In this document: in pieces, positions 3,277-33,614 of the stretch
How the letters are laid out: every line of letters starts with the position of its first letter
Numbering within the stretch: position 1 is the first letter of the stretch
Source of the DNA: a virus
Lineage: Duplodnaviria > Caudoviricetes
Strand: one strand, 5' to 3'
Length of the DNA: 64,000 nucleotides
Virus record (IMG/VR): IMGVR_UViG_3300022752_000016
Program-made: the position numbers and the translations under genes
The notes under the pieces: generated by a model
The model's input: only the letters and a program-made list of their open reading frames with translations
What the model was told of the DNA's origin: nothing
The model's database searches: none

Positions 3277-3298
3277 AAAAAATCTCATTAATATTTTA

Positions 3299-3306
3299 TA
3301 TAAATA
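3299..3306 (+). promoter_or_regulatory. Late promoter TATAAATA heading the glycosylation island
   Basis: Perfect T4 late consensus, followed by SD AGGAG and ATG 3325. Confidence 0.65.
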
Positions 3307-3324
3307 TTAGCAGGAGATTAATAT

Positions 3325-3633
3325 ATGAACACAGAGCAATTATTAAAAGATTCTAAAGCAAGATTTAGTCATAATTCTGCAAAATTTGCACTTAGTGAAA
3401 AATATGCAAATAAATTAATTATAGTTGAACAACATGGATTATGGAAGATTACTCCTGAAATTATTGCATATCTTAATTCTTTAGGTAATACAGAAGAAAC
3501 AATTATATTGGACGAATATAAAGATCCTAAAAAGGTTAAAGTTACTAATTTAAGAAAAAAATTTACAGAAGTTTATAATGAAGTTATGCAAGAATGGTAT
3601 AATGAATGGTCTATGTTAGAAGGTAAAAAATGA
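3325..3633 (+). CDS. Hypothetical protein
   Basis: 102-aa ORF with SD; coupled to next gene. Confidence 0.6.
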   Translation: MNTEQLLKDSKARFSHNSAKFALSEKYANKLIIVEQHGLWKITPEIIAYLNSLGNTEETIILDEYKDPKKVKVTNLRKKFTEVYNEVMQEWYNEWSMLEGKK

Positions 3634-19727: not shown

Positions 19728-22700
19728 ATGATTAGAGATGTTTTTTATTATGGCAAGAAGCCTAACATTCATCCAAGAGAAAGATTTGCTAAAAACCTTG
19801 AAGAAGCAAGAGAGTTATCAAATACAGAGCATTTTTGGATAATAAATGAATTTTGTGATTATAAAAATTTTGATTGGGATTTCGATTACGAATTTTTACC
19901 AGACGAGGATGTATGGGCGCAGGATCATATAAATATATGGCCAAGTTTATATCAAAAAGATAGTGGAACATGGTTAGTTCCAAATAATAATAGTTTAGTG
20001 AGAATTTACAGAAATGATGTACAACCTGTAGATAGAAAAATAATTAAAGATAATTGGATTATTTATTCACAAATAGACAGTAAAAAATTTGATTTAAAAT
20101 GGCATCCTGATCCACTTGATCCGCCCTTTATTTATGTATGGGGGAATAAATTTATACCAGCAGAACTGCAACCTACAATAGAATATTATACACCTAGTGC
20201 TGTTGAACGAAAATACATGGGTGAAGTTGAGGTATTACCACAAATGGAACGTTGGGTAATGGTTCAAGATATAACTGAGGATTTTGATTTAACTTGGAGA
20301 CCTGATCCAAGAGAACCTCCGTACATTTACGTTTGGGGAAACAAATATATACCTGGAGAGTTACAATCTACAATTGAATATCATACTCCTAATGCAATCA
20401 ATAAAAAATATATGGGTAATGCACCTGTTTTACCTGATAAAAATTGGAAAATTATACAGGAAATTGATAAAACTAAATTTGATTTATCTTGGAGACCTGA
20501 TCCACGTGAACCTCCATACATTTATACTTGGGGAAATAAGTTTATTCCTGCTGAAATAATGCCTACAATTCAATACTTATGTCCAAACGCTACTGAACAT
20601 AAGTACATGCAAGAACCATTAGAGGTATTACCTGAATATGAAAAATGGGTAGAAGTACAGGCTATCGATAAAACTAAATTTGATTTATCTTGGAGACCTG
20701 ATCCACGTGAACCTCCATATATTTACGTTTGGGGAAACAAATATATACCTGGTGAATTATTACCTACATTGCAATATAATTGTATAGGAGCAAAAGAATA
20801 CAAATATATGGGTGATGTTGAGGTTATTCCAGAACACGAAAAATGGGTAGAAGTACAGGCTATCGACAAAACAAAATTTGATTTATCTTGGAGACCTGAT
20901 CCACGTGAACCTCCATACATTTATACTTGGGGAAATAAATATATACCTGGTGAATTAATGCCAACTTTAGAATATAGATGTATTGGAGCAACAGAACGCA
21001 AATATATGGGTGATGTTGAGGTTATTCCAGAACACGAAAAATGGGTCGAAATTCAACTAATTGATAAGACAACATTTGACATGACATGGAGACCTGATCC
21101 AAGAGAACCTCCATATATTTACGTTTGGGGGAATAAGTTTATTCCTGCAGAATTAATGTCAACTTTAGAATATAGATGTATTGGAGCAAAAGAATACAAA
21201 TATATGGGTGATGTTGAGGTTATTCCAGAACACGATAAATGGGTCGAAGTGCAGTTAATTGATAAGACAAAATTTGACATGACATGGAGACCTGATCCAA
21301 GAGAACCTCCATATATTTACGTTTGGGGGAATAAGTTTATTCCTGCAGAATTAATGCCAACTTTAGAATATAGATGTATTGGAGCCACTGAGCGAAAATA
21401 TATGGGAAATATTGATGTATTGCCTGAGTTTAATAGATGGGTCGAAGTTCAAACTATTGATAAGACTAAATTTGATATGACATGGAGACCTGATCCAAGA
21501 GAACCACCTTATATCTATGTATGGGGAAACAAATATATACCAGGCGAATTAAAATCAACAATTGAATACCATACCCCTAATAGTACTGAACGTAAGTATA
21601 TGGGAGATGTTGATGTTTTACCAGAAACAGAACGTTGGAATATTGTTCAAAAACCTAAGGATTTTGATTTAACATGGAGACCTGACCCAAAAGAACCACC
21701 ATACATTTATGTATGGGGCAATAAATATATACCTGGGGAGATACAATCTACAATAGAATATCATACACCTGACGCTCAAGAAATAAAATATATGGGTGAC
21801 ATAGAAGTTGTACCATATTATGAACATTGGAATATTGTGCAAGAAGTCGGTGATGATTTTGATCTTTGTTGGAGACCTGATCCAAGAGAACCACCATACA
21901 TTTATGTATGGGGGAACAACTATATACCTGGCGAGGTTAAAGCTACAATTGAATATCATACACCTAATAGTATTGAACGCAAGTATATGGGTATTGCCAG
22001 TGTTAAACCTGACAAAAATTGGAAAATTACACAGGATATTGATATTGAAAAATTTGATTTATGTTGGAGACCTGATCCTAGGGAGCCTGCATACATTTAT
22101 ACTTGGGGTAATAAGTATGTAAGTGCTGAACTAGTACCAACCATTGAATATTATACTCCTAACGCCACTGAACGTAAGTATATGGGTGAAGTAGACGTTA
22201 TTCCTGAATTTGATCGTTGGGTAGAAGTACAACCAATTGACAAATCAACATTTGATATGACATGGAGACCTGATCCAAGAGAACCACCATACATTTATGT
22301 ATGGGGTAATAAACATATTCCCGCCGAACTAAAACCCACGCTAGAATATTATACTCCAAACGCAACAGATAGAAAATATATGGGTAATGTTGAAGTTTTA
22401 CCAATAAACGAAAATTGGAAAATTACCCAAGAAGCTATAAACTTTGATTACACATGGAGACCGGACCCAAGAGAACCTGATTATATCTATGTATGGGGTA
22501 ACAAGTATATACCTGGCGAGTTAAAACCTACAATTGAATACATTTGTCCTAACGCTATTGAAAAAAAGTATATGGGGAATGTTGAAGTAGCCTCTGAATG
22601 GGACAAATATAGAATACTGATCCCTGTTGATAAGAATAGTTTTGATTTTAGTTGGAGACCTGATCCAAGAGAGCCTCCCTATATTTACGTTTGGGGCAAT

Positions 22701-25556
22701 CAAACTAATAGTGCCACTATAGAACCTACGATAGAATATCATTGCACAGGTGCTGTTGAACGCAAATACATGGTTGACAGAGTAGCTACAACGTTACCAG
22801 ATATTGAAAAATTTAAAATTTTAATTTCAGTAAAAGATTTTGATTTTAGTTGGAGACCAGATCCTCATAGTCCTCCTTATATCTACGTGTTTGGTAACCA
22901 ATGGCATGATGCAATGACTGAACCTACAGTAGAATATCATGTACCTGGTGCGAAAGAAAAAAAATATATAACAGATATTATAGCGAAGGTAAGTCCTACA
23001 CAGGAAAATTGGAAAACACTTATCCCTGTTGTAGATTTTGATTATAGCTGGAGGCCTAACCCACACAGTACTCCATACATTTATGTATTTGGAAATCAAT
23101 GGAATCCTATTGAATTAGAGCATACAGTTGAATACCATACACCTGGGGCAAAAGACTACAAATATATAACAGATATTGTAGCAAATCTTAAACCAACTAA
23201 CACTGAAAAACATTGGAAAAGGTTGTTACCTGTTGAAAGTTTTGATTATAGTTGGAAACCTGATCCAAGAGAACCTGCATTAATATATGTATTTGGAAAT
23301 AAATGGAATGATTCTAAGACTGAGCCTACTATTGAATATCATTGTGAAGGTGCTACAGAACGAAAATACTTAGATTTTCCTGTAGCTAAACCCACAGTTG
23401 AATTTAAATATTGGTCCATATCAAATAATTACGATCTAGAATCATTTGATTTTAGTTGGAGACCTAATCCGCATAGTCCACCACAAATTTATCAATGGGA
23501 AAATAATGGTCCAAGATATAATGTACCAGGTGCTACAGACGTTGTATTAATGAAAAGAATTGATACTGACTATGCACCGAAAATTAATAAATATTTTATT
23601 AAAACTAACCTTACCGATTTGATTAGTGAACATCCAAATGAAGTATTTTGGGCTTTAAATCCTGATCTAAATTATGATAAGTTTGACTTTACATGGAAGC
23701 CTAATAAAGAAAATTTTACACACATAAATGTTTTTGGTAATGAATATAGTAAAAATACCCACACATATTATATAAACGGGCCAATGTATAACTTGGGATA
23801 TAGGCAATATAATTATATAAATAATCAAAAATTTAGTGGGGATACAAACCTTTCAATGTTTTTTATTGATAGGGGTAATGATTATAGTCAAAAAAGATTC
23901 GATGCACTTAAAACAAAGTACCCACAATTACAAAAAACAAGATTTCTAAATTCTTGGGTAGATACTATTAATCGTTGCACTCAAAAATCTTATACAAAGT
24001 TCCTTTGGGTTTTAAGTAGCGAATTAGATTATAGTGAATTTGAGTTTGACTTTTATCCTAGTCCATGGCAAGAAAAAATGGTACATGTGTTTGGTACACA
24101 ATGGAGTCATTGGGGTAATACATACCTAATAAACAAGGAAACATTTGCAAATGATACTAAGTATATAAAAATTATTGAACATTTGTCATGTTTAAATTTT
24201 GTCAAAACTAAACGTGCAAAAGCTGTGGACATTATTTATGATATTGTCTATATTGACCACAAAAATACAAAAGTGGATAGTAATAAATTTAAATATGTGA
24301 TTGAGTATGAGGATAATTATTATAAAACTTTTAAAAAATTAATTGATGTTTTACCTAAAAAGAAAGAGCATTATATTTGGATAATAAGTTCAATCTGTGA
24401 TTATACAAACTTTAATTTTACTTACATTTGTGACCCATTTGCTAAAGAACAATTACACGTTTTTCCAAGCGATAAACAAAAATATGGTGACACATTTTTT
24501 GTAGACGTTAATAATTTACGTGAACAAATTGAAAATATTGAAAAACTTAAAAATTTTACAAAAATAAATTTTAATAATCATCAAACAGTAAAAAGATTAG
24601 ATTGTCCTAAATTTGTAATAGAGGATGATACTTTTGTAAATTCAATTAATGTTGAATTTAATTTTCCCTATGCAAATTTTGTAACGGTAGATAATTGTAC
24701 ATTAAATGTTGTGGACGATGATCCAATCAATTTGTGGGAAGAAGAAACAAAAAATATTATAGTGCAAAGTACAGGTAATACAAATATTATTATACCCAAA
24801 GAAGTAAAGAAATATGTAAAAAAAGAATTGTATGATTATCCTTATATCACTAAACGTGATAAATTACAATCAAGTTTTCCATTAGATATTGTTTTTTTAA
24901 GTAATGGTGAAAAAAATGCTGATGCAAACTATGAACATCTATTATCTGTAATAAAAAATAAACCAAATAGAGTAATAAGAGTTGATGGTATTAATGGTAG
25001 AAAAAATGCAAATTACGCAGTTGCAGATATTAGTAATACTCCTTGGATGTTTGTAGTATTTGCAAAGTTAAAAGTAAAAGAAAACTTTGATTGGGATTGG
25101 CAACCTGATAGAATGCAATTACCAAAACATTATATTTTTTATGCTAGGAATCCTGTTAATGGTTTGTTTTACGGACACCAAGCAATGATAGCATGGAATA
25201 AAAATATAGTTTTACAAACACAAGGAGTAGACTTAGATTTTACAATGGAAGGTAACCATGAAGTTGTTAAGATAGATAGCGGAACACCTTATTATAATAC
25301 AGATGAATATAGCACATGGAGGACTGCTTTTAGAGAGGTTATAAAATTGAAGTATTACAACAATAAAGAAAGTCAGCATCGTTTAAAAGTATGGTCAAGT
25401 ATAGCAGAAGGTGATTTTGCCCAATTTAGTTTACAAGGAGCAAAACATGCTATAGATTACTTTAATGCGGTTGATGGTAATATTGATAAATTAAAATTAA
25501 GTTACGAATGGGCTTGGTGTAAAGAATATTTTCTTAAAAAGTATGATAGAATTTAA
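19728..25556 (+). CDS. 1942-aa tandem-repeat protein with C-terminal glycosyltransferase-like domain
   Basis: 18 clear ~60-aa repeats (FDxxWRPDPREPPYIYVWGN...) plus degenerate copies; C-terminal DIVFLSNGE...RVDGING...WRTAFREVIKL domain. Confidence 0.8.
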   Translation: MIRDVFYYGKKPNIHPRERFAKNLEEARELSNTEHFWIINEFCDYKNFDWDFDYEFLPDEDVWAQDHINIWPSLYQKDSGTWLVPNNNSLVRIYRNDVQPVDRKIIKDNWIIYSQIDSKKFDLKWHPDPLDPPFIYVWGNKFIPAELQPTIEYYTPSAVERKYMGEVEVLPQMERWVMVQDITEDFDLTWRPDPREPPYIYVWGNKYIPGELQSTIEYHTPNAINKKYMGNAPVLPDKNWKIIQEIDKTKFDLSWRPDPREPPYIYTWGNKFIPAEIMPTIQYLCPNATEHKYMQEPLEVLPEYEKWVEVQAIDKTKFDLSWRPDPREPPYIYVWGNKYIPGELLPTLQYNCIGAKEYKYMGDVEVIPEHEKWVEVQAIDKTKFDLSWRPDPREPPYIYTWGNKYIPGELMPTLEYRCIGATERKYMGDVEVIPEHEKWVEIQLIDKTTFDMTWRPDPREPPYIYVWGNKFIPAELMSTLEYRCIGAKEYKYMGDVEVIPEHDKWVEVQLIDKTKFDMTWRPDPREPPYIYVWGNKFIPAELMPTLEYRCIGATERKYMGNIDVLPEFNRWVEVQTIDKTKFDMTWRPDPREPPYIYVWGNKYIPGELKSTIEYHTPNSTERKYMGDVDVLPETERWNIVQKPKDFDLTWRPDPKEPPYIYVWGNKYIPGEIQSTIEYHTPDAQEIKYMGDIEVVPYYEHWNIVQEVGDDFDLCWRPDPREPPYIYVWGNNYIPGEVKATIEYHTPNSIERKYMGIASVKPDKNWKITQDIDIEKFDLCWRPDPREPAYIYTWGNKYVSAELVPTIEYYTPNATERKYMGEVDVIPEFDRWVEVQPIDKSTFDMTWRPDPREPPYIYVWGNKHIPAELKPTLEYYTPNATDRKYMGNVEVLPINENWKITQEAINFDYTWRPDPREPDYIYVWGNKYIPGELKPTIEYICPNAIEKKYMGNVEVASEWDKYRILIPVDKNSFDFSWRPDPREPPYIYVWGNQTNSATIEPTIEYHCTGAVERKYMVDRVATTLPDIEKFKILISVKDFDFSWRPDPHSPPYIYVFGNQWHDAMTEPTVEYHVPGAKEKKYITDIIAKVSPTQENWKTLIPVVDFDYSWRPNPHSTPYIYVFGNQWNPIELEHTVEYHTPGAKDYKYITDIVANLKPTNTEKHWKRLLPVESFDYSWKPDPREPALIYVFGNKWNDSKTEPTIEYHCEGATERKYLDFPVAKPTVEFKYWSISNNYDLESFDFSWRPNPHSPPQIYQWENNGPRYNVPGATDVVLMKRIDTDYAPKINKYFIKTNLTDLISEHPNEVFWALNPDLNYDKFDFTWKPNKENFTHINVFGNEYSKNTHTYYINGPMYNLGYRQYNYINNQKFSGDTNLSMFFIDRGNDYSQKRFDALKTKYPQLQKTRFLNSWVDTINRCTQKSYTKFLWVLSSELDYSEFEFDFYPSPWQEKMVHVFGTQWSHWGNTYLINKETFANDTKYIKIIEHLSCLNFVKTKRAKAVDIIYDIVYIDHKNTKVDSNKFKYVIEYEDNYYKTFKKLIDVLPKKKEHYIWIISSICDYTNFNFTYICDPFAKEQLHVFPSDKQKYGDTFFVDVNNLREQIENIEKLKNFTKINFNNHQTVKRLDCPKFVIEDDTFVNSINVEFNFPYANFVTVDNCTLNVVDDDPINLWEEETKNIIVQSTGNTNIIIPKEVKKYVKKELYDYPYITKRDKLQSSFPLDIVFLSNGEKNADANYEHLLSVIKNKPNRVIRVDGINGRKNANYAVADISNTPWMFVVFAKLKVKENFDWDWQPDRMQLPKHYIFYARNPVNGLFYGHQAMIAWNKNIVLQTQGVDLDFTMEGNHEVVKIDSGTPYYNTDEYSTWRTAFREVIKLKYYNNKESQHRLKVWSSIAEGDFAQFSLQGAKHAIDYFNAVDGNIDKLKLSYEWAWCKEYFLKKYDRI
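20080..23520 (+). repeat. Intragenic tandem array of ~180-nt units (tggagacctgatcca core)
   Basis: Near-identical DNA units, most similar between ~20480 and 21550. Confidence 0.9.
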
Positions 25557-25561
25557 AAAAT

Positions 25562-25696
25562 ATGTTATTACTTTTTTCATCTCATTTAAATCATTCTATT
25601 TTACAAAATTTATCACAGGAAGAAAGATTTGTAGTTGCTTTTAATTTTTTTATGAAGGGAAATATAGGTACTAATGAATGGATGTTAAAACTATAA
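25562..25696 (+). pseudogene. C-terminal remnant of a 2OG-Fe(II) oxygenase-like gene
   Basis: MLLLFSSHLNHSILQNLSQEERFVVAFNFFMKG resembles the distal H...R..hFN strand region; in-frame stops at 25544-25549 remove the N-terminal part. Confidence 0.55.
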
Positions 25697-25699
25697 ATA
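25692..25699 (+). promoter_or_regulatory. Late promoter TATAAATA in front of tmRNA acceptor piece
   Basis: Perfect consensus just upstream of the acceptor piece. Confidence 0.65.
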
Positions 25700-25704
25700 A
25701 AGAA

Positions 25705-25774
25705 TAAAGAATTGTTGTATGAAGTTGAAGGAAAAGTGCTGCGGACGCGGGTTCGACTCCCGCCTGGTCCACCA
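25705..25774 (+). ncRNA. ssrA: tmRNA acceptor piece of a circularly permuted (two-piece) ssrA
   Basis: GGAC-GCGGG-TTCGACT-CCCGC T-arm, CTGGTCC-A-CCA end pairing with GGGCCAG at 26001 including G3-U70; TGTTGT (25713) pairs with ACAACA (26042); 5' end approximate. Confidence 0.9.
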
Positions 25775-25813
25775 TAAGGAAATATCCATAAGGAAATATC
25801 CATAAGGAAATAT
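25772..25813 (+). repeat. Three perfect copies of CCATAAGGAAATAT (14 nt)
   Basis: 25772-85, 25786-99, 25800-13; first copy begins at the tmRNA CCA, last ends at ATG 25814. Confidence 0.95.
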
Positions 25814-25999
25814 ATGAGAGTTACAAACACAGAATCAATTCAACTTACACCTAAAGATGGTAAATGGTATGCTATGCCAAATGACCAATACATTAGATGG
25901 AATTTTGATGAGAGAATTTGGGATTATATGATCACAAAAGAAGGGGACACAAAGCCTAGATTTTGGGATCAATTACCGGATGGTACGGTTTCCTTATGA
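25814..25999 (+). CDS. 61-aa Trp-rich protein inside the tmRNA intervening segment
   Basis: SD AAGGA 5 nt upstream; fills the intervening segment; TGA ends 1 nt before the tmRNA 5' G. Confidence 0.65.
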   Translation: MRVTNTESIQLTPKDGKWYAMPNDQYIRWNFDERIWDYMITKEGDTKPRFWDQLPDGTVSL

Positions 26000-26000
26000 T

Positions 26001-26170
26001 GGGCCAGACATGGTTTCGACGGGGTAAAGAGTACGGATATGGACAACACGGTAGGCGAAGACCGCAAATCTAGCAAAGCAAATAGACGCAAATGACGACT
26101 ATTTTTATCAGGATCTCAAGCTAGCCGCTTGAGCCTGACGGGGTAGGAAAGACCTTGTAACCAAACAAAC
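26001..26170 (+). ncRNA. ssrA: tmRNA coding piece; tag ANDDYFYQDLKLAA* (26088-26132)
   Basis: GGGCCAGACATGGTTTCGACGGGG 5' end, AAATAGAC-GCA resume context, LAA-stop tag, stop codon in CTCAAGC/GCTTGAG hairpin; 3' end approximate. Confidence 0.9.
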
Positions 26171-26171
26171 C

Positions 26172-26193
26172 TAGGCTCTACGGAGCCTATTTT
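26172..26193 (+). terminator. Rho-independent terminator after tmRNA
   Basis: TAGGCTC-TACG-GAGCCTA-TTTT. Confidence 0.75.
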
Positions 26194-26328
26194 ACCCAAT
26201 ATCTATAGACATTGCGTAAAAAAGTGTTATAGTTTGCACTAATACTTTAATTAATTAGGTTAGATTATATGCACTAAATATTAATCTACACCTGATTTTT
26301 ATCAGGTATTATTTTATAAGGAACTAGA

Positions 26329-27342
26329 ATGAAAAAACTTTTATTAGCGTCACTTATTGCAGGTGCTACATCAGTTGCAGTTGCACAAACAACTGTATAT
26401 GGTTTGGCTGATGCATATTATGGACATCAAACAAATGCAAAAAATAGCAATCAAGTAAATGCTGGTGGTATGACAACTAGTTACATTGGTATCAGTGCAT
26501 CTGAAAAAATTGGCGATCTACAAGCTAGAGCAGTATTAGAGACATTTTTGCGTCCTGATACCGCACAACAAGGTCGTTTTAATAATGATACTTTTTATGC
26601 AAGAAACGCATATGTTGCACTATCATCTAAAGCAGGTGAAGTACAACTTGGTCGTGTAACTACACCATACTTTATCTCAACAATTGCATTTAATGCATTA
26701 GGTGATAGCTTTGTATTCAGTCCAACAGTAACATCAAGGGTTGGAGTTAATAACTTTAATCTTGGTGGTGGTGGAAGTGATACAGGATGGAATAACTCAG
26801 TTTTAGTAAAAACTAGTATGGCTGGTTTAGCACTTACAGGTGTCTATAGTGCAGGAGTTACTGATGATAGCAACGCAAAATTATCAGGTAAAAGCGTTGG
26901 CGCCATGTACTTTCAAGGTCCAATTGGTTTAACTGCAACTTGGCAAGACGTAGAGCAAGGCGCAGGTAAAGCAAGTATGTCATCAACAATCGTTGGTGCA
27001 AGTTATGATCTTAAAGTAGCAAAGGTGTTTGCTCAACATGAGACTGTTAAAAACAGCGATAATGTAACAAAAGAAGATAGAGGTTATACAGTAGGCGCAA
27101 CAATGCCAATGGGTAAAAATACTCTAATGGCAAGCTATGCAAAGAAAGACCATGATTTCACAAATGGTAGAACTGCTGAAACAGCAAGCTGGGCAGTAGG
27201 TGTAAGCCATGCACTAAGCAAGCGTACTGATTTATATGCTGCTGTACGTGATACAAATTATACTAATGACGGTTTAAATAGAACAAATGCAAACTTCGTC
27301 GATACCCGTGTAACAGGTGTAGGCGTACGTCATCGTTTTTAA
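26329..27342 (+). CDS. Gram-negative general porin (Betaproteobacteria-like)
   Basis: Signal peptide, TTVYGLADA N-terminus, YALSKRT-like HALSKRTDLYAA, C-terminal GVRHRF with terminal Phe. Confidence 0.88.
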   Translation: MKKLLLASLIAGATSVAVAQTTVYGLADAYYGHQTNAKNSNQVNAGGMTTSYIGISASEKIGDLQARAVLETFLRPDTAQQGRFNNDTFYARNAYVALSSKAGEVQLGRVTTPYFISTIAFNALGDSFVFSPTVTSRVGVNNFNLGGGGSDTGWNNSVLVKTSMAGLALTGVYSAGVTDDSNAKLSGKSVGAMYFQGPIGLTATWQDVEQGAGKASMSSTIVGASYDLKVAKVFAQHETVKNSDNVTKEDRGYTVGATMPMGKNTLMASYAKKDHDFTNGRTAETASWAVGVSHALSKRTDLYAAVRDTNYTNDGLNRTNANFVDTRVTGVGVRHRF

Positions 27343-27364: not shown

Positions 27365-27388
27365 AAAGGCACATATTGTGCCTTTTTT
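27365..27388 (+). terminator. Terminator after porin
   Basis: AAAGGCAC-ATATT-GTGCCTTT-TTT. Confidence 0.75.
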
Positions 27389-27439: not shown

Positions 27440-27461
27440 TGCCCGAAAGGGCATTTTTTTT
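27440..27461 (+). terminator. GNRA-capped hairpin with T8 run (terminator/attenuator-like)
   Basis: TGCCC-GAAA-GGGCA-TTTTTTTT, downstream of late-like box GCTAAATA (27396). Confidence 0.6.
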
Positions 27462-27472
27462 GGAGAAATATT

Positions 27473-27577
27473 ATGTCATGGTTTAGACACTTTAGACCCA
27501 AGCACCCACCTTTCCCACCGTATAAGCAACCTGTTCCTATACCAAAAAATAAGGAGCCAGTGAAACCTAAATCATAA
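27473..27577 (+). CDS. 34-aa proline-rich basic peptide (MSWFRHFRPKHPPFPPYKQPVPIPKNKEPVKPKS), not in ORF track
   Basis: SD GGAG at 27462; translated by hand; 10 Pro, 8 Lys/Arg. Confidence 0.5.
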   Translation: MSWFRHFRPKHPPFPPYKQPVPIPKNKEPVKPKS

Positions 27578-27584
27578 ATACTTA

Positions 27585-29681
27585 ATGGACATTAAAGAAC
27601 TACACTCATTTAGATTAAGTGACGCAGTAAAATTTCAGGATAAACTTAACCCAAAATTATTCTTGGGAAACCGTTTAGATCCTGCTGTAAAAAATCAATT
27701 AATTACAATTGCTAAAGATTTTCTTACAGAATTAGGGATAGGTGATGTAAAAGTTAAAGATATAACAATATCAGGTAGCAATGCAGCATTTACTTATACA
27801 CCACATAGCGATTTAGACTTACACATAGTTGTTGATTATAATCAATTTTCCAATGATAGCGTTTACAAAGAATTGTTTAACGCTAAGAAAAATTTATACA
27901 ACGATAGTCATAACATTACAATACGTGGTATTCCAGTAGAAGTATATATGGAAGATAGCAATGAACCAGTCATTAGTGTTGGTGAATACAGTATACTAAA
28001 GGATAAATGGAATCAAATTCCAACTAAACGTAGAGCAAACTTTGATCAAACTGCCACTAAGGCGAAGTATGGTAAACTAAATGATTTTATACTAAGAGCA
28101 TTAAAAGAAAAAAGTAGCAAAAAGATAGCCAAAGCATTAAAAATAATTAAGCGTTACAGACAAGCAGGGTTAGATAAAGGTGGTGAGTTTAGTCCTGAAA
28201 ATTTAGCATACAAAGCTTTACGTAGTCAAAAAGCAATTGAAAAACTATATAAGTTGCGTGATGAATTACATAGTAAAGAATTAAGTATTGAAAACATGTA
28301 TCAGGAACAAAAGCTAAATCGATTCGATGAAGACATTCCAGTTCAAAAAGGACCAGCGCGGTTAAAAAGACAAAGTGAATTAGAAAAGACACAAGACGAA
28401 TTAGGATCAGGTTTTTTTGGTACAGTTTATGATGAACCAAAAAGTAAAACTGGTGTAGGCACTGCTAGAAAAGTTTCTACATTTGATAGAGATGAGATGA
28501 CTGCTGACGGGTATTATGCTTATATCAATAAGATTATTGATCTTAAAAATGAAACTAATAATCCATACTTACCACAAGTATATGATGCTAAAGTTGTAAA
28601 ACCAAAGTCAGTAGGAAGTGAGCCATACTTTGAATTAGAACTTGAAAAATTAAGTAAATGGGAAGATTTAAGTGGTAATCAATTACGAGCAATACTAGAA
28701 AAAATGCTTGATGAAAGTTTTGAAAATGAAAAGAAACTACAAGATGTTTTGAAATTTTTAGGGCATTCAGGTGCGTCAGATACGAGTGACGAATGGTTAA
28801 TGTATGTAATTTTATATTTTATTAGGCTTACAATTAAAAATCCAAACTTTAGTTTAATGGGTATGAAAATTCGTGACCCACAACTTCTTGAAGTCACTGA
28901 TATGTTAAGATATCTGTCTAAGTCAGGGTATGGTATGGACTTACATGATCAAAATATCATGGTAAGAAATAGTAAATATGGCCCACAATTAGTTATTACA
29001 GATCCTTTAAGCTTTGGTGAAACTAGTCAGATACGAAAATTTAAACAAGGCAATATGAAAATGGATGTAAGGGGTGTAACTATACCACCTAATTACATAA
29101 TTTATGACATACATGATAAAGATAGACCAGTATTGCGTGGCTATGGCAGTTACGAAGAAATCTACCAACAATTCATAGAATTAAAGAATAAAAAACCATA
29201 TAATGATTATGAAATAGCTCCAATGAATCAAAAAGCTTCGGATGAAATGGATGCGAAGCAAGCAAGTGTAAAAGCAAAGTATAAAGAAAAACCACCTGCA
29301 AATCCTAAATATCAGCTTAAACCAAAATATACTTATGCTGTTTATGATAAAGATAAAACAAGCAATATGCTAATTGGTTATGTTAATGCTAACCATGATT
29401 CTGAAGCATTGGGATTGGCAAGAAAAAAATTCCCCGATGTAAAAAATATTAATGTGTTGCCTGATTTACTTGGTGATCCAAATGATAAATTTGCTGGTAT
29501 GTTAGAAGAAGCATTGGGTGAAAGTGCCTCGGGATATATCCCAAGCAAAAAACAAGCTAATGACCCAAGATTTAAGACTGCCTTGACAGTAGACATAAAA
29601 CCCGATAGCATCCAAAAGAATGCCAAAGCTTTTGGGTTTAAAGTAAAAAGGTCTGGAATCCCACCCCTGCTAAGACCCTAA
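27585..29681 (+). CDS. Pol-beta-family nucleotidyltransferase fused to a protein-kinase-like domain
   Basis: ISGSNAAFTYTPHSDLDLH (GS..DxD); LGSGFFGTVY, RKV, DLHDQNIMV, VITDP kinase motifs. Confidence 0.75.
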   Translation: MDIKELHSFRLSDAVKFQDKLNPKLFLGNRLDPAVKNQLITIAKDFLTELGIGDVKVKDITISGSNAAFTYTPHSDLDLHIVVDYNQFSNDSVYKELFNAKKNLYNDSHNITIRGIPVEVYMEDSNEPVISVGEYSILKDKWNQIPTKRRANFDQTATKAKYGKLNDFILRALKEKSSKKIAKALKIIKRYRQAGLDKGGEFSPENLAYKALRSQKAIEKLYKLRDELHSKELSIENMYQEQKLNRFDEDIPVQKGPARLKRQSELEKTQDELGSGFFGTVYDEPKSKTGVGTARKVSTFDRDEMTADGYYAYINKIIDLKNETNNPYLPQVYDAKVVKPKSVGSEPYFELELEKLSKWEDLSGNQLRAILEKMLDESFENEKKLQDVLKFLGHSGASDTSDEWLMYVILYFIRLTIKNPNFSLMGMKIRDPQLLEVTDMLRYLSKSGYGMDLHDQNIMVRNSKYGPQLVITDPLSFGETSQIRKFKQGNMKMDVRGVTIPPNYIIYDIHDKDRPVLRGYGSYEEIYQQFIELKNKKPYNDYEIAPMNQKASDEMDAKQASVKAKYKEKPPANPKYQLKPKYTYAVYDKDKTSNMLIGYVNANHDSEALGLARKKFPDVKNINVLPDLLGDPNDKFAGMLEEALGESASGYIPSKKQANDPRFKTALTVDIKPDSIQKNAKAFGFKVKRSGIPPLLRP

Positions 29682-29689
29682 CCCAAAAC

Positions 29690-29718
29690 TTGACAATAAT
29701 TACCCGAAATGCTATACT
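29690..29718 (+). promoter_or_regulatory. Sigma70-type early promoter
   Basis: TTGACA-17-TATACT. Confidence 0.8.
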
Positions 29719-29746
29719 ATGGGTATAGTAAATCAACGGGGTAAGT

Positions 29747-29830
29747 ATGCAAGATTTGAAAGACTTATTGTTAGGGATCGCAAGTTCTACTACTTTAGTA
29801 CTATTGGTAAGTGCTTTGAAAGCATTGTGA
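29747..29830 (+). CDS. 27-aa hydrophobic peptide (MQDLKDLLLGIASSTTLVLLVSALKAL)
   Basis: First ATG after promoter, GGGG SD-like; stop directly before next promoter. Confidence 0.45.
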   Translation: MQDLKDLLLGIASSTTLVLLVSALKAL

Positions 29831-29833
29831 GAC

Positions 29834-29862
29834 TTGACAATAAATCAAATCGGCTTTATAAT
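29834..29862 (+). promoter_or_regulatory. Sigma70-type early promoter
   Basis: TTGACA-17-TATAAT (perfect consensus). Confidence 0.85.
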
Positions 29863-29893
29863 ACTCACATACACTCAAAAAACAGGAGTTTTT

Positions 29894-30148
29894 ATGCGTA
29901 GGTCTCAAGTCATCAAGGGTCTTAATAATAGTCAAAAAGTACGTGTTATTGTCAATGGTGTAGGTTTCTATACTACGGTGCAGAGTGCGTTAGATATGTG
30001 TTTCACCCGACAGCGTAGTGCCGTAGAAATGGCTTTGACTACGATTGGTCTTAGTAAGATTGCAAAAAAGCCAATTACAGGCTTTGCAAGCAACTATGAC
30101 TTTGCAGGTACCTCACAACCTGTTGAAGTTCAAGTTGACCTAATCTAA
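29894..30148 (+). CDS. Early hypothetical protein
   Basis: SD AGGAG then ATG 29894 (track start lies in the promoter). Confidence 0.7.
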   Translation: MRRSQVIKGLNNSQKVRVIVNGVGFYTTVQSALDMCFTRQRSAVEMALTTIGLSKIAKKPITGFASNYDFAGTSQPVEVQVDLI

Positions 30149-30158
30149 GGAGTTGTAT

Positions 30159-30377
30159 ATGGGATATAAGGTACTTGCCGATAAGTCTCAAATGGATGAA
30201 ATGCGACAAAAGTATGGACCACGCAAAGGTTTAGAAGGTCCATTTAACTTTTCGGGTAGAGTGTTGTATTATGACAACAAAGAAGGGTTGTACTACGATC
30301 CTAAAACGGACTTTTATGTTGAGCAATCAGAAATGGATCTAATCCATAATGGTTTAGTCCAAAAACTAATCAAATAA
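30159..30377 (+). CDS. Early hypothetical protein (YYDNKEGLYYDPKTDFY motif)
   Basis: SD AGGAG; internal YYD repeat. Confidence 0.7.
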   Translation: MGYKVLADKSQMDEMRQKYGPRKGLEGPFNFSGRVLYYDNKEGLYYDPKTDFYVEQSEMDLIHNGLVQKLIK

Positions 30378-30385
30378 GGAAACTT

Positions 30386-30655
30386 ATGGCATTTATTGTA
30401 CGTGACAATGAAATAGTCCCAATCGCTATTCCCTTGGGAAAACGTATAAAGATTGGGTCCAATTACACTGCGCCTTATGAAAATTATGTAGCCAATGACC
30501 AACTTTGGATACAGGACGTATTTACATTTAAGAATATTCCATGGTATGCCATACGTAATCGCTTTGAAAAATATTTGGTTGTTGGGGTTATCTATTGTGC
30601 AATCGTATTGATCCTATCAATGATAGGACGGTATTATTTGGGTGCTCCAAGTTGA
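30386..30655 (+). CDS. Early hypothetical membrane protein
   Basis: SD AAGGA; C-terminal TM helix. Confidence 0.65.
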   Translation: MAFIVRDNEIVPIAIPLGKRIKIGSNYTAPYENYVANDQLWIQDVFTFKNIPWYAIRNRFEKYLVVGVIYCAIVLILSMIGRYYLGAPS

Positions 30656-30680
30656 CAATAAATGGACTTGGTAGTATACT
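30652..30680 (+). promoter_or_regulatory. Sigma70-type early promoter
   Basis: TTGACA-17-TATACT. Confidence 0.8.
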
Positions 30681-30710
30681 ATATGTATGTTGAATAACAA
30701 GGAGTTGCAA

Positions 30711-30971
30711 ATGGAATACGTAGTTTATCACAAAGCAAGTACAAAGATTCTTAAAGTGTTCAATGCAAAGGCTTCAGCCAAGCGTAGTGCTACTTGTATG
30801 AATCGTAAAGCAGGTGATGTATACTACACTTTTGCTGATCGTGAAACCTACGAACGCCGTGTTGTAACCCGTAAAACTGTAAAAAATTTGTTGACTGGGC
30901 AGGATGTTGAAATTGATAGTAACACTCCACATTGTTGTGATCCTTCCAGCGAAACCTATTGGTCAATGTAG
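30711..30971 (+). CDS. Early hypothetical protein (C-terminal TPHCCDPSSETYWSM)
   Basis: SD AAGGAG then ATG 30711. Confidence 0.7.
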   Translation: MEYVVYHKASTKILKVFNAKASAKRSATCMNRKAGDVYYTFADRETYERRVVTRKTVKNLLTGQDVEIDSNTPHCCDPSSETYWSM

Positions 30972-30974
30972 TGT

Positions 30975-31003
30975 TTGACAATAAATCACATATTTTGTAC
31001 AAT
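30975..31003 (+). promoter_or_regulatory. Sigma70-type early promoter
   Basis: TTGACA-17-TACAAT. Confidence 0.8.
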
Positions 31004-31035: not shown

Positions 31036-32133
31036 ATGACTAAAGTTTCTGATAACCACACTGTAACTAGTGTTCAAGCACGTAAGGCTTTGCTTAAGGC
31101 TTTTGATGCTAAACGCCCCATTTTCTTGTGGGGTCCTCCCGGTATCGGTAAATCTGAGGTAGTTGCAGAGGTTACTGAGGAACTTGGCGGTTTTATGATT
31201 GATTTGCGTATGGCGCAAATGGAGCCTACTGACATTCGAGGCATTCCGTTCTTCAATCGTGACCTTAACAAAATGGATTGGGCTCCACCGATTGATCTTC
31301 CCGATGAGGAGCTTGCAAGTCAATATCCACTGATTGTGTTGTTCCTTGATGAAATGAACAGTGCACCGCCCGCAGTACAGGCTGCAGGTTATCAACTTGT
31401 TTTAAATCGCCGTGTGGGCAAGTATGTGTTACCTGACAATGTTGTGATTGTTGCGGCAGGTAATCGTGATAGCGACAAGGGTGTTACTTATCGTATGCCA
31501 ATGCCCCTTGCTAATCGTTTCATTCACCTTGAAATGCGAGCCGACTTTGCAAGTTGGCAGAACTGGGCAGTAAACAAAGGCATTCATAAAGATGTGGTTG
31601 GTTACTTGTCATTCAGTAAACAGGACTTGTACGAGTTTGATAACAAAAGTTCTAGCCGTGCATTTGCTACTCCGCGTAGTTGGGTCTTTGTTTCAGATTT
31701 ACTCAATGATGAGGAAAGCGATTACGATACCCTGTACAACTTGGTAGCAGGTAGTGTCGGTGACGGATTGGCTGTAAAGTTTATGGCACACCGTAAGGTT
31801 GCAGGTAGCATGCCTGAACCAAGTGACATTCTTAGCGGTAAAGTTAAGGATCTCAAAGTTAAAGAAATTAGTGCTATGTATTCGCTAACCATCTCAATGT
31901 GTTACGAATTGCGTGATGCATTGGATAACAAGAAAGTGGATAACAAGAAATTCCACGATATGGCAAACAATTTCTTTACTTACATTATGGCTAACTTTGA
32001 GACTGAGTTGGTTGTAATGGGTGCAAAGATTGCTTTAAAAACTTACAAGCTTCCAATTGAACCCAGTCAATTGAAGAACTTTGATGAGTTTCACAAGCGT
32101 TATGGTAAATACATTGTAGAGGCAGGTAACTAA
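31036..32133 (+). CDS. MoxR-like AAA+ ATPase
   Basis: GPPGIGKS Walker A, LFLDEMN Walker B, AAGNR, LANRF. Confidence 0.88.
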   Translation: MTKVSDNHTVTSVQARKALLKAFDAKRPIFLWGPPGIGKSEVVAEVTEELGGFMIDLRMAQMEPTDIRGIPFFNRDLNKMDWAPPIDLPDEELASQYPLIVLFLDEMNSAPPAVQAAGYQLVLNRRVGKYVLPDNVVIVAAGNRDSDKGVTYRMPMPLANRFIHLEMRADFASWQNWAVNKGIHKDVVGYLSFSKQDLYEFDNKSSSRAFATPRSWVFVSDLLNDEESDYDTLYNLVAGSVGDGLAVKFMAHRKVAGSMPEPSDILSGKVKDLKVKEISAMYSLTISMCYELRDALDNKKVDNKKFHDMANNFFTYIMANFETELVVMGAKIALKTYKLPIEPSQLKNFDEFHKRYGKYIVEAGN

Positions 32134-32134
32134 A

Positions 32135-32302
32135 ATGAAGAAACAACTAGGGGGTAAAAAGTATTTTTATGCCCTTGGTCAGTGGGCCCGTAGTAAAGGG
32201 CTCACCAAGGATCAAGGTATGAGTGTTTTAGGTCTTAAAGAAGGGACCTATGCTAGTATTGCGTATGACAAAGGTTATCGTGGACTATCAACTAAAGGTT
32301 GA
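32135..32302 (+). CDS. 55-aa basic hypothetical protein (MKKQLGGKKYFYALGQW...), not in ORF track
   Basis: ATG 1 nt after the MoxR stop; fills the gap up to the next promoter. Confidence 0.55.
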   Translation: MKKQLGGKKYFYALGQWARSKGLTKDQGMSVLGLKEGTYASIAYDKGYRGLSTKG

Positions 32303-32327
32303 CAGTAATTCTTTGTATTGCTATACT
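32299..32327 (+). promoter_or_regulatory. Sigma70-type early promoter
   Basis: TTGACA-17-TATACT. Confidence 0.8.
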
Positions 32328-32348
32328 AGTAAAAATTAAGGAGCTTAT

Positions 32349-33614
32349 ATGTCTGATGTAATTGGTCGCAAGAGTAAAAAACGTAGTAGCAAGTTTGATA
32401 ACTTGATTGGTGTCACTGATCCTAAAATTGATAATTTGGCACGTGAGAAGTTAGTAACTGCTAGAATTGGTTTGTTACTGCGCCATAGTTTTTTCGGTAA
32501 TCTTGCTACCCGTCTCAGACTAATTAACGCGGATGAGTGGTGTAGCACTGCGGCCACTGACGGATTAAAATTCTATTACAATTCACGTTTCATTAATATG
32601 CTCAAGCCTAAGGAAGTAGAATTCCTAGTAGGGCATGAAGTGTTACACGTGGTCTATGATCACATGGGCCGTCGCAATAATCGTGATCCGCAGATTTGGA
32701 ACATTGCTGATGACTATGCAGTTAACGCAGACCTAAAACGTCATCGTGTTGGCGAGTTTATCAAAACTGTTCCGTGCTTATACGAGGCAAAATATGACGG
32801 CAAGGCAGCTGAGGAAATCTATGATGACCTGATGAAAAATGTTCAAAAGATTAATATTGAGGACCTCATCGACCAAATGATTGATGATCATATGGACGGA
32901 GAAGGTGATGGAGAAAGTGACGGAGAAGGTAATAGTAATCGTCCTAAGATGAGTGCCGAGGAGCGTGAACGTGTCCGTCAAGAAGTAAGGCAAGCAATTC
33001 TTAATGCCGCACAGGGTGCTGAAGCAGGAACTATTCCCAAAGGTGTTGAACGTCTTATTAAACAGCATACGAATCCAGTTATGCCGTGGCGTGAGTTAAT
33101 TCAAACTAACCTGACTAGTGCTATTCGCACTGATTTTAGTTGGATACGTCCTAGTCGGCGTGGTTGGCATAGTGACGCAATCATGCCTGGTATGACCCCA
33201 GGTGAAGAAATTGATGTAACTGTTGCTATTGACATGAGTGGATCAATCAGTGACAAACAGGCTCAAGCATTTTTGGGTGAAATTGCAGGCATGATGGCAA
33301 GTTTTGATGGGTACAAAGTACATGTATTTTGCTTTGATACTGATGTATACAATCCTGCTGATTTTAATTCAGAGAATATGGATACGATTGAATCGTATGA
33401 GCCAGCAGGTGGAGGTGGTACTGACTTTGATGTAATCTTTAGCTATCTTAAGGAACATGCAATTGATCCCAAACGATTGATTGTTTTTACTGATGGATAT
33501 CCCTGTGGTAGTTGGGGTGATCCTGATTATTGCGATACTACTTGGATCATTCACGGTGACAAGGATCCGAATCCTCCTTTCGGTACTTTCGCACTCTATG
33601 ATGAAAAGTCATAA
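32349..33614 (+). CDS. Metallopeptidase-like/VWA domain protein (MoxR partner)
   Basis: HEVLH (HExxH), DMSGS MIDAS motif, GGGGTDF, VFTDGY. Confidence 0.85.
   Translation: MSDVIGRKSKKRSSKFDNLIGVTDPKIDNLAREKLVTARIGLLLRHSFFGNLATRLRLINADEWCSTAATDGLKFYYNSRFINMLKPKEVEFLVGHEVLHVVYDHMGRRNNRDPQIWNIADDYAVNADLKRHRVGEFIKTVPCLYEAKYDGKAAEEIYDDLMKNVQKINIEDLIDQMIDDHMDGEGDGESDGEGNSNRPKMSAEERERVRQEVRQAILNAAQGAEAGTIPKGVERLIKQHTNPVMPWRELIQTNLTSAIRTDFSWIRPSRRGWHSDAIMPGMTPGEEIDVTVAIDMSGSISDKQAQAFLGEIAGMMASFDGYKVHVFCFDTDVYNPADFNSENMDTIESYEPAGGGGTDFDVIFSYLKEHAIDPKRLIVFTDGYPCGSWGDPDYCDTTWIIHGDKDPNPPFGTFALYDEKS

What the first reader, a model, noticed from the sequence alone, without database searches (positions are those of the whole stretch)
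27585..29681. Nucleotidyltransferase-protein kinase fusion with protease-site-like linkers
Seen: Pol-beta NTase (GS...DLD), then a kinase-like domain (~28400-29005; GSGFFG, K, DLHDQN, TDP), then further modules. Linkers are Glu-rich (LSIEN..QE, LEEALGES) and the gene follows a late box. Known: T4 packages and injects Alt, and T7 gp0.7 kinase rewires the host. Inference: a head-packaged, proteolytically matured effector polyprotein for host takeover or anti-defence, possibly RNA-end repair.
Basis: partly seen in the sequence, partly recalled or inferred. Interest (0 to 1): 0.7.

Follow-up and report, generated by a model that had tools for sequence, protein, structure and literature searches.

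The report
Late phage NTase-kinase cargo polyprotein
A giant T4-type freshwater phage has inserted a T7-type host-disarming protein kinase into the hinge of a widespread nucleotidyltransferase-plus-tail protein whose relative is found in virions, so the kinase is probably loaded into the head, cut free and delivered with the DNA, though no cut has been measured.

Summary

**Anatomy**
- aa 1-235: Pol-beta nucleotidyltransferase with an invariant catalytic set.
- aa 250-479: true homologue of the T7 gp0.7 kinase (hhalign 98%, E 1.7e-13), with all catalytic residues and the T7K-type DP motif.
- aa 480-646: two small modules of unknown function.
- aa 647-698: conserved basic tail.

**Family**
- About 2,700 protein clusters in uncultured T4-type jumbo phages belong to this family.
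- The base form (about 290-300 aa) is NTase, then an I-x-E hinge, then the tail.
- Unrelated cassettes sit in that hinge: kinase, ART-PolyVal, GNAT, deaminase, NT5C, DUF5661. They are bounded by hydrophobic-x-Glu.
- The kinase cassette is rare: 5 of the 120 best long relatives.

**Evidence for packaging**
- A NATAAATA late box sits 12-15 nt before the ATG in 48 of 60 family contexts. In this genome it marks structural genes.
- All five complete relatives encode a T4 gp21-type head protease.
- T4 Alt has the same layout (ITE-6, LTE-619).
- The stand-alone NTase of cyanophage S-CREM2 was detected in purified virions.

Packaging and cutting are plausible (about 0.5) but unmeasured. The scan had already noted this family, and similar cassette polyproteins, on other DNA. 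I class it as a new variant of known kinds.

The parts
27574..27581 (+). Late-promoter-like box CATAAATA, 3 nt before the ATG. The mRNA would be nearly leaderless.
   Evidence: NATAAATA lies at -12 to -15 in 48/60 unique upstream contexts of family genes whose other upstream sequence differs. It is conserved in locus L007. In the 137-kb record the same box precedes baseplate, tail tube, adaptor, virion structural and TerL genes.
27585..27599 (+). N-terminal peptide M-D-I-K-E5, a possible Alt-like short propeptide (I-x-E then L).
   Evidence: Residues 1-8 are disordered in the model. 80 of 112 relatives have [LI]-x-E-L at residues 3-6. S-CREM2 ORF156 begins MKKLISE-L. T4 Alt begins MELITE-L and is cut at ITE-6 (PMC5694885). 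Cleavage is inferred only.
27585..28289 (+). Pol-beta-superfamily nucleotidyltransferase domain, aa 1-235. The core is aa ~12-145 and a helical bundle covers aa ~152-235. Catalytic residues: G64-S65 (27774-27779), D76/D78 (27810-27818), E119 (27939-27941).
   Evidence: phrog_36119 E 1.4e-41. Weak NTP_transf_2, Polbeta and SidM_N hits. The residues are invariant in 73 relatives. AF2 pLDDT is 81. Minimal NTases 2rff and 1ylq match at Z 6.6. Foldseek hits to CD-NTase, ANT, AadA, LinB, DrrA and MNT are weak. The stand-alone S-CRM01 protein ends at the equivalent of I235.
28290..28331 (+). Hinge, aa 236-249, ending in F247-D-E249 (28323-28331), a candidate head-protease site before the kinase cassette.
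   Evidence: Low pLDDT at both model ends. All five kinase-bearing relatives have [FIV]-[DE]-E followed by DIPV(Q/T)(K/Q)GP at this point. P0002 and P0003 carry an extra ~216-aa DUF5661+GNAT-like cassette inserted just upstream.
28332..29021 (+). T7 gp0.7 (T7K)-family Ser/Thr protein kinase module, aa 250-479. G-loop aa 274-279 (28404-28421), K296 (28470-28472), D452-x4-N457 (28938-28955), D473-P-L (29001-29009).
   Evidence: phrog_15752 E 5.4e-9. 686 cluster representatives match, mostly stand-alone 210-260 aa proteins. The residues are invariant in 96 sequences. hhalign to T7 gp0.7 gives 98%, E 1.7e-13. AF2 pLDDT 88, pTM 0.84. All top PDB hits are protein kinases. BFVD top hits are phage protein kinases including Autographiviridae ones, best TM 0.66/0.71.
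29022..29522 (+). Two small modules of unknown function, aa 480-646 (about 495-565 and 575-640, faintly alike), ending in L644-G-E646 (29514-29522), a candidate protease site before the tail.
   Evidence: Found only in P0002-P0005. No Pfam hit. No usable Atlas hit. Internal similarity E 0.067.
29523..29678 (+). Conserved basic C-terminal tail, aa 647-698 (5.7 kDa, pI 10.5). The motif is ASGYIPS..NDPRF.TALTVD..P......A..F......G.PP.
   Evidence: Present in all 120 best long relatives and in 113 of the 120 best short ones. S, G, Y, I, P, D and R are invariant. It is preceded by hydrophobic-x-E, with or without one extra residue, in 77/80 unique contexts. Synonymous codons vary freely, so selection acts on the peptide and not on the DNA.

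Best explanation
The gene is a derived member of a very large family of late phage proteins in T4-type jumbo phages.

- **Base form.** A Pol-beta nucleotidyltransferase is joined through an I-x-E hinge to a ~52-residue basic tail.
- **This copy.** A cassette holding a T7K-type protein kinase and two small modules has been inserted into that hinge.
[quoted passage not shown] This would give a ~28-kDa NTase, a ~45-kDa kinase piece and a 5.7-kDa basic peptide. These would enter the next host with the DNA. There the kinase would phosphorylate host proteins, including defence, transcription and translation factors as T7K does, before any phage gene is expressed. The NTase would nucleotidylylate an unknown target.
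- **Shown here.** The domains, their catalytic residues, the family architecture, the junction motif, the late box, and the protease gene in relatives.
- **Inferred.** Packaging, cutting, delivery and substrates.
For: **Domains**
- NTase.
- Kinase.

**Family architecture**
- 1,403 long and 1,349 short clusters match.
- Minimal forms of 283-302 aa join ..LSIE-E or ..I-K-E directly to ASGYIPS.
- The cassettes between the two conserved ends vary: ART-PolyVal, GNAT, deaminase, NT5C, DUF5661, and a second Polbeta domain.

**Junction motif**
- 77/80 unique pre-tail contexts carry it.
- 46% of inner homology break points have hydrophobic-x-E within 4 residues, against 12.5% of random positions.
- The kinase cassette is always preceded by [FIV]-[DE]-E.

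**Late box**
- 48/60 family contexts carry it.
- In this genome the box marks baseplate, tail tube, adaptor, virion structural and TerL genes.

**Protease**
- Peptidase_S77 (T4 gp21 type) is present in 5/5 complete 335-524 kb genomes that carry the family.

**Precedent**
- T4 Alt is cut at ITE-6 and LTE-619, losing 63 C-terminal residues (PMC5694885; Alt sequence).

**Virion evidence**
- S-CREM2 ORF156 is 35% identical (E 3e-41), belongs to the same PHROG and has the catalytic motif intact.
- It was detected in CsCl-purified virions with 6 unique peptides (PMC10665884, Table 3).
- That paper also cites protein kinases found in S-CRM01 and S-TIM5 virions.

**Kinase function**
- T7K disarms many defence systems by pervasive phosphorylation (PMC13645617).
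Against: - No virion or cleavage data exist for this protein or any tail-bearing relative, and none is in a cultured phage.
- The protease gene is not in the 137-kb partial record itself (an uninformative search).
- I found no IPIII-like capsid-targeting leader.
- The N-terminal I-x-E is only 70% conserved.
- The S-CREM2 authors themselves warn that abundant non-structural proteins may co-purify with virions.
- The gene lies among accessory and early-type genes, not in the head module.
- Hydrophobic-x-Glu is a short motif and could be kept as part of a flexible linker.
- The tail has no similarity to Alt's C-terminal propeptide.
Confidence: 0.5

Rival explanations
1. A late-expressed cytoplasmic multidomain enzyme that is neither packaged nor cut. 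The NTase, kinase and tail act as one polypeptide inside the cell where they are made, for example on phage or host proteins late in infection. The Glu-rich junctions are simply flexible linkers left by domain shuffling.
For: - The gene lies outside the head gene cluster, next to a porin gene and early-type small genes with sigma-70 promoters.
- No capsid-targeting leader of the IPIII type was found.
- The S-CREM2 virion hit could be carry-over, as the authors caution.
- Stand-alone kinase relatives are very common, so the kinase needs no carrier.
Against: - A host-takeover kinase of the T7K type is of little obvious use when made only late.
- The motif before the tail is hydrophobic-x-E in 77/80 contexts, with free variation at P2 and P3 and an optional extra residue. 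That fits a protease site better than a structural linker.
- The cassette types (ART-PolyVal, GNAT, deaminase, kinase) are those of delivered polyvalent proteins (PMC5512222).
- The termini parallel T4 Alt.
Confidence: 0.3
2. The conserved tail is not a propeptide or cargo peptide. It is instead the NTase's own substrate or regulator: the invariant Tyr in SGYIPS would be nucleotidylylated in cis, as DrrA and MntA do to Tyr in their targets. The cassettes inserted between enzyme and tail would be controlled by that modification.
For: - The NTase and tail are co-inherited whatever lies between them.
- S-G-Y-I-P is invariant while its codons vary, so the peptide is under protein-level selection.
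- The NTase's weak sequence and fold matches include the Tyr-AMPylators DrrA and MNT.
Against: - Cyanophage homologues lack any tail or tail-like neighbour.
- In ART-bearing members more modules follow the tail.
- This idea is not exclusive of packaging.
Confidence: 0.1
3. An RNA-end or tmRNA/tRNA maturation or repair enzyme, with the NTase adding nucleotides to RNA 3' ends and the kinase module acting on nucleic acid or a small molecule.
For: - A tmRNA gene lies 1.4 kb upstream.
- A tmRNA gene lies within 4 kb upstream in 10 of 53 family loci.
- Pol-beta NTases include CCA-adding enzymes and poly(A) polymerases.
Against: - The synteny is partial (19%) and is expected among related genomes.
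- No match to CCA-adding or poly(A) polymerase families reached significance.
- The kinase is a clear T7K-family protein kinase.
- The partner cassettes in relatives are protein-modifying enzymes.
Confidence: 0.05

Closest known systems
Phage T4 Alt (packaged ADP-ribosyltransferase processed by the gp21 prohead protease)
   Same: - A host-modifying enzyme in a T4-type phage.
- A short N-terminal peptide ending I-x-E then L: ITE-6 in Alt, IKE-5 here.
- A C-terminal piece of 50-63 residues after hydrophobic-x-E: LTE-619 in Alt, LGE-646 here.
- Relatives of this protein carry an ART-PolyVal domain in the same frame.
   Different: - There is no sequence similarity to Alt or to its C-terminal propeptide.
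- The conserved enzyme is an NTase, not an ART.
- Extra cassettes are inserted at the hinge.
- Packaging and cutting are unmeasured here.
Phage T7 protein kinase gp0.7 (T7K)
   Same: - Profile homology of 98%, E 1.7e-13.
- The same G-loop, Lys, D-H-x-x-N and I-T-D-P motif with DP in place of DFG (PMC13645617).
- A minimal kinase fold.
   Different: - T7K is a free early protein with a C-terminal shut-off/DNA-binding domain.
- This kinase has no such domain, sits inside a late NTase-tail protein, and carries DPL rather than DPV.
- Activity and promiscuity are untested.
Polyvalent proteins of phages and conjugative elements (Iyer, Burroughs, Anand, de Souza, Aravind 2017, PMC5512222)
   Same: - Several unrelated effector domains in one polypeptide: Pol-beta NTase, kinase, GNAT, ART.
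- Architectures vary between close relatives.
- Delivery with the DNA is predicted.
- ART-PolyVal is found in family members.
   Different: - There is no embedded zincin-like peptidase. Release would rely on the head protease and hydrophobic-x-Glu joints.
[quoted passage not shown]
- The kinase is of T7K type, not the Kinase-PolyVal family.
- A fixed NTase head and fixed tail flank the variable part.
Stand-alone phrog_36119 NTases of T4-like cyanophages (S-CRM01 g125, S-CREM2 ORF156) and other phages
   Same: - 35-37% identity over the whole NTase domain, with the same catalytic residues.
- S-CREM2 ORF156 was found in virions.
   Different: - They end at the equivalent of I235.
- They have no hinge, cassette or tail.

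Membership tests
Pol-beta superfamily nucleotidyltransferase | hG[GS] motif followed by [DE]h[DE]h, and a third acidic residue on a later strand | tested here: met
   I-S-G64-S65, D76-L-D78-L and V-E119-V are all invariant in 73 relatives.
Pol-beta superfamily nucleotidyltransferase | Minimal alpha-beta NTase fold, or a match to a curated model | tested here: inconclusive
   Pfam NTP_transf_2 scores 17-19 bits, below the cut-off of 21. VIA-align Z is 6.6 to 2rff and 1ylq over aa 12-142. Foldseek E-values are 1.6e-3 to 0.1 against CD-NTase, ANT, AadA, DrrA and MNT. The direction is consistent but the scores are modest.
T7 gp0.7 (T7K) kinase family | Homology to the T7 gp0.7 kinase domain | tested here: met
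   hhalign gives probability 98%, E 1.7e-13 over 159 columns. phrog_15752 E 5.4e-9.
T7 gp0.7 (T7K) kinase family | Catalytic set: Gly-rich loop, ATP-binding Lys, D-x4-N catalytic loop, and a DP(V) motif in place of DFG | tested here: met
   G274, G276, K296, D452, N457 and D473-P474 are invariant or nearly so in 96 sequences. They align with the T7 residues. The third residue is Leu, not Val.
T7 gp0.7 (T7K) kinase family | C-terminal shut-off (SO) DNA-binding domain, as in Autographiviridae | tested here: not met
   The alignment to gp0.7 stops at residue 222 of 359. aa 480-646 match nothing. The Nature paper says jumbophage homologues also lack SO.
Kinase-PolyVal (PF18762) | Match to the Pfam model | tested here: not met
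   No hit for aa 245-505 even at E 10, and none among 96 relatives. The only hit is a sub-threshold one (E 0.006) for a second kinase in P0005.
Polyvalent proteins (Iyer et al. 2017) | Two or more unrelated effector domains in one polypeptide of a phage or conjugative element, with architectures that vary among relatives | tested here: met
   NTase plus kinase here. Relatives hold ART-PolyVal, GNAT, deaminase, NT5C, DUF5661 or a second Polbeta domain.
Polyvalent proteins (Iyer et al. 2017) | Embedded peptidase (usually a zincin-like MPTase) that releases the domains | tested here: not met
   No peptidase domain in P0001 or in ten relatives scanned.
T4-type capsid cargo processed by the prohead protease (Alt, IPI-III) | The genome encodes a gp21-type (Peptidase_S77) prohead protease | tested here: inconclusive
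   Present in 5/5 complete relatives carrying the family. Not found in the window's own 137-kb, 40%-complete record.
T4-type capsid cargo processed by the prohead protease (Alt, IPI-III) | Hydrophobic-x-Glu sites at exposed termini or junctions | tested here: met
   I3-K-E5, F247-D-E249 and L644-G-E646. The hinge is disordered in the models.
T4-type capsid cargo processed by the prohead protease (Alt, IPI-III) | Late transcription | tested here: met
   Judged by motif only: a conserved NATAAATA box that in this genome precedes structural genes. No transcript data are available.
T4-type capsid cargo processed by the prohead protease (Alt, IPI-III) | N-terminal capsid-targeting sequence like that of IPIII | tested here: inconclusive
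   A loose IPIII-like pattern found no credible leader in the record. The N-terminus resembles Alt's ITE-6 peptide only in I-x-E-L.
T4-type capsid cargo processed by the prohead protease (Alt, IPI-III) | Physical presence in virions and cleaved ends | not testable with these tools
   The only evidence is a published virion MS hit for the distant stand-alone homologue S-CREM2 ORF156.

The most novel reading that the evidence does not exclude
The NTase, I-x-E hinge and basic tail form a natural capsid-delivery chassis of T4-type jumbo phages. Its two conserved ends load or tether the protein in the prohead. The protease hinge is the place where evolution plugs in interchangeable effector cassettes. 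In this phage the chassis delivers a ready-made T7K-type, broadly defence-disarming kinase at the moment of DNA entry. This would be a virion-delivered version of a weapon so far known only as an early gene product.
Probability: 0.35. Interest if true: 0.8.

Novelty: new variant of a known kind. Interest (0 to 1): 0.62.

Why it matters
T7K was recently shown to disarm many bacterial defence systems by mass phosphorylation, but it acts only after it has been expressed. A pre-packaged homologue would act before any defence can sense phage transcription or replication. The family also offers a clear natural rule: insert at the head-protease hinge between a fixed enzyme and a fixed tail. That rule describes how T4-type phages diversify delivered effectors, could guide cargo-loading designs in laboratory phages, and gives about 2,700 natural architectures to mine. 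It also points to a highly conserved phage NTase (65-70% identity across hundreds of genomes, virion-associated in one cultured relative) whose substrate is unknown.

Tried and rejected
- **Complex prediction, NTase domain with tail:** no verdict, so it is evidence in neither direction.
- **Peptidase_S77 in the window's own record:** none found. The record is only 40% complete and the control rang nowhere, so this is uninformative.
- **Tail against T4 Alt's C-terminal propeptide:** probability 0.4%, so no homology.
- **tblastn of the tail against 50,697 phage records:** no match. Megablast of the gene: no match. No cultured phage carries this form.
- **Kinase-PolyVal and other Pfam kinase models:** no significant hit.
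- **PDB sequence searches:** nothing below E 0.1. A weak hit of the kinase profile to Tad3 (9b7d_B, E 0.25) was set aside as not significant.
- **aa 480-646:** no relatives beyond four close ones, no Pfam hit, no usable Atlas hit, and internal repeat E 0.067.
- **IPIII-like leader pattern in the 137-kb record:** only two implausible hits.
- **'LSIE' as a canonical cut site:** rejected for this protein because P3 is Ser. In the minimal forms, however, the same place reads I-E-E or I-K-E directly before ASGYIPS.
- **The tail start as a DNA-level recombination joint like the QGVAEG linker noted elsewhere in this genome:** rejected, because synonymous codons vary freely.
- **Tail-like peptides beside the cyanophage homologues:** none found.
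- **Dreher et al. 2011 (S-CRM01 virion proteome):** not held, so I could not check whether g125 was detected.
Full report
**1. Observation**

The window is part of a 137-kb IMG/VR phage record judged 40% complete. It has a T4-type large terminase, gp32-like SSB, UvsX and gp9/10-like baseplate genes. A single ORF runs 27585..29681 on the + strand and encodes 698 aa. Identical copies lie on ten metagenome contigs with the same neighbours. An 85%-identical copy has the same synteny.

**2. NTase domain (aa 1-235)**

- It matches phrog_36119 (E 1.4e-41). Pfam NTase models match only below threshold.
- In 73 relatives, G64-S65, D76, D78 and E119 are invariant. This is the Pol-beta catalytic pattern.
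- The AF2 model (pLDDT 81) has an alpha-beta core followed by a helical bundle.
- The core aligns with the minimal NTases 2rff and 1ylq (Z 6.6).
- Foldseek's weak hits are all Pol-beta enzymes with a helical second domain: CD-NTases, ANT/AadA, LinB, DrrA and MNT.
- Stand-alone homologues occur in T4-like cyanophages, Maribacter phages, Lak megaphages and others.
- The S-CRM01 protein ends exactly at the equivalent of I235.
- The substrate is unknown.

**3. Kinase module (aa 250-479)**

- A whole-library HMMER search found 686 cluster representatives. Most are stand-alone proteins of 210-260 aa.
- G274, G276, K296, E354, D452, N457 and D473-P474 are invariant or nearly so.
- The family profile aligns with T7 gp0.7 at 98% probability (E 1.7e-13). 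The alignment matches the G-loop, the Lys, D-H-x-x-N and I-T-D-P.
- The model is confident (pLDDT 88, pTM 0.84).
- All top PDB matches are protein kinases.
- The top viral matches are phage kinases, including Autographiviridae ones.
- The DP motif in place of DFG is the hallmark reported for T7K homologues. The same paper shows that T7K disarms many defence systems, and that jumbophage homologues lack the shut-off domain (PMC13645617).

**4. The rest of the protein**

- aa 480-646 hold two small, faintly similar modules. They occur only in four close relatives and have no assignable fold.
- aa 647-698 are a basic tail (pI 10.5).

**5. Family anatomy**

- The NTase domain is 65-70% identical in 1,403 longer and 1,349 shorter protein clusters.
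- All 120 best long relatives, and 113 of the 120 best short ones, also carry the tail.
- About half of the short tail-bearing ones are minimal forms of 283-302 aa. In these the NTase end (..LSIE-E..LSIK-E..MYATE) abuts ASGYIPS directly.
- The base protein is therefore NTase, an I-x-E hinge, and the tail.
- Longer members carry unrelated cassettes in the hinge: DUF5661, GNAT, cytidine-deaminase-like, NT5C, DUF6934, a second Polbeta NTase, and ART-PolyVal. ART-PolyVal lies after the tail.
- The kinase cassette is in only 5 of the 120 best long relatives.
- P0002 and P0003 are about 95% identical to this protein over the aligned parts (about 65% of it), but hold an extra ~216-aa DUF5661+GNAT-like cassette between the NTase and the kinase. 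That is a recent cassette gain or loss.
- The tail's codons vary freely at synonymous sites, so the peptide itself is under selection.

**6. Junction motif**

- Hydrophobic-x-Glu precedes the tail in 77 of 80 unique contexts, directly or with one extra residue. The per-position background is 1.6%.
- Inner homology break points have the motif within 4 residues in 46% of 714 contexts, against 12.5% at random positions.
- The kinase cassette is always preceded by [FIV]-[DE]-E.
- In this protein the junction sites are F247-D-E249 and L644-G-E646. An I3-K-E5 lies in the disordered N-terminus.

**7. Timing**

- CATAAATA lies 3 nt before the ATG.
- In 48 of 60 unique upstream contexts of family genes, NATAAATA (mostly GATAAATAC) sits at -12 to -15. 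The sequence further upstream is unrelated between contexts: terminators, a small ORF, or other genes.
- In the 137-kb record the same box precedes baseplate wedge, tail tube, head-tail adaptor, virion structural and terminase genes.
- This is good comparative evidence for a late promoter.
- Two terminators after the porin gene insulate the gene from upstream transcription.

**8. Could it be packaged and cut?**

- All five complete genomes (335-524 kb) that carry the family encode a T4 gp21-type protease.
- T4 Alt, the classic packaged effector, loses six N-terminal residues at ITE-6 and 63 C-terminal residues at LTE-619 (PMC5694885; sequence). The layout here is the same.
- S-CREM2 ORF156 is a full-length stand-alone homologue (35% identity, E 3e-41, same PHROG). 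It begins MKKLISE-L. It was detected with six peptides in CsCl-purified virions.
- The authors caution that abundant proteins can co-purify with virions.
- They also cite kinases found in S-CRM01 and S-TIM5 virions.
- A T7K-type takeover kinase made only late makes most sense if it is carried into the next cell.

**9. Verdict on mechanism**

I put about 0.5 on the full chain: late synthesis, prohead loading, cuts at E249 and E646, then delivery. I put about 0.3 on an uncut, unpackaged late enzyme. Smaller odds go to the tail being a cis substrate and to an RNA-directed role. The domain assignments and the family architecture are near certain.

**10. Comparison with known systems and novelty**

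- The protein works like T4 Alt and like the polyvalent proteins of Iyer et al. 2017.
- It differs from both. It has no embedded peptidase, a fixed NTase head and a fixed tail, and insertion at a protease hinge.
- Its kinase is of T7K type, not Kinase-PolyVal.
- I found no paper describing the family. There were no hits for DUF5661, and the T7K paper reports only 222 homologues, none fused to an NTase.
- Earlier notes of this scan had already flagged this family and similar Glu-punctuated polyproteins in this and other genomes.
- I class it as a new variant of known kinds.

Noticed in passing
window 27474-27578: A 34-codon proline-rich small ORF (MSWFRHFRPKHPPFPPYK...) with its own Shine-Dalgarno site lies between the second terminator and the NTase gene. 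Its stop codon overlaps the late box. It is conserved in the 85%-identical locus L007, and similar Pro-rich ORFs precede several family genes (for example L064, L078, L081).
   Followed up: partly
window 25682-26223; loci L009, L010, L012, L018, L026, L028-L033: A two-piece tmRNA gene lies upstream of the gene. A tmRNA gene in the same orientation lies within 4 kb upstream in 10 of 53 family loci. This is recurrent but partial synteny of unknown meaning.
   Followed up: partly
window 26329-27342: A phage-borne Gram-negative porin gene (Porin_4, E 1.3e-40) is followed by two intrinsic terminators (27365-27385, 27440-27453). The same porin-NTase order is seen in the relative L007.
   Followed up: no
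window 29690-31003: Four near-perfect sigma-70 promoters (TTGACA-17-TATAAT/TATACT/TACAAT at 29690, 29834, 30652 and 30975) precede small ORFs just downstream. This is an early-type block abutting the late gene.
   Followed up: no
window 31036-33614: A MoxR-like AAA ATPase (phrog_1297) and a DUF2201 metallopeptidase-VWA protein form a pair that is conserved downstream in relatives.
   Followed up: no
window 19728-25556: A 1942-aa protein is built from about twenty tandem ~65-aa repeats (FD.(S/T)WRPDP.EPPYIY.WGNK...EY). It has no Pfam family on record.
   Followed up: no
P0001 relatives, residues 1-9: At the N-terminus a Glu sits either at position 5 (MDIKELHSF type) or at position 7 (MDIKTLESF type), and only occasionally at both. 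One Glu thus seems always to be kept in the first seven residues.
   Followed up: partly
P0005; P0006, P0099; loci L041 and L061: P0005 carries NT5C plus two kinase modules. P0006 and P0099 hold a truncated first half of the tail followed by other modules. One 524-kb genome has two family genes.
   Followed up: no
L002 (S-CRM01) 1-879 and 2950-3678: In cyanophage S-CRM01 a gene annotated 'serine/threonine kinase PKN8' lies five genes from the stand-alone NTase homologue g125. The S-CREM2 paper says an S-CRM01 kinase was found in virions. I could not check which one.
   Followed up: no
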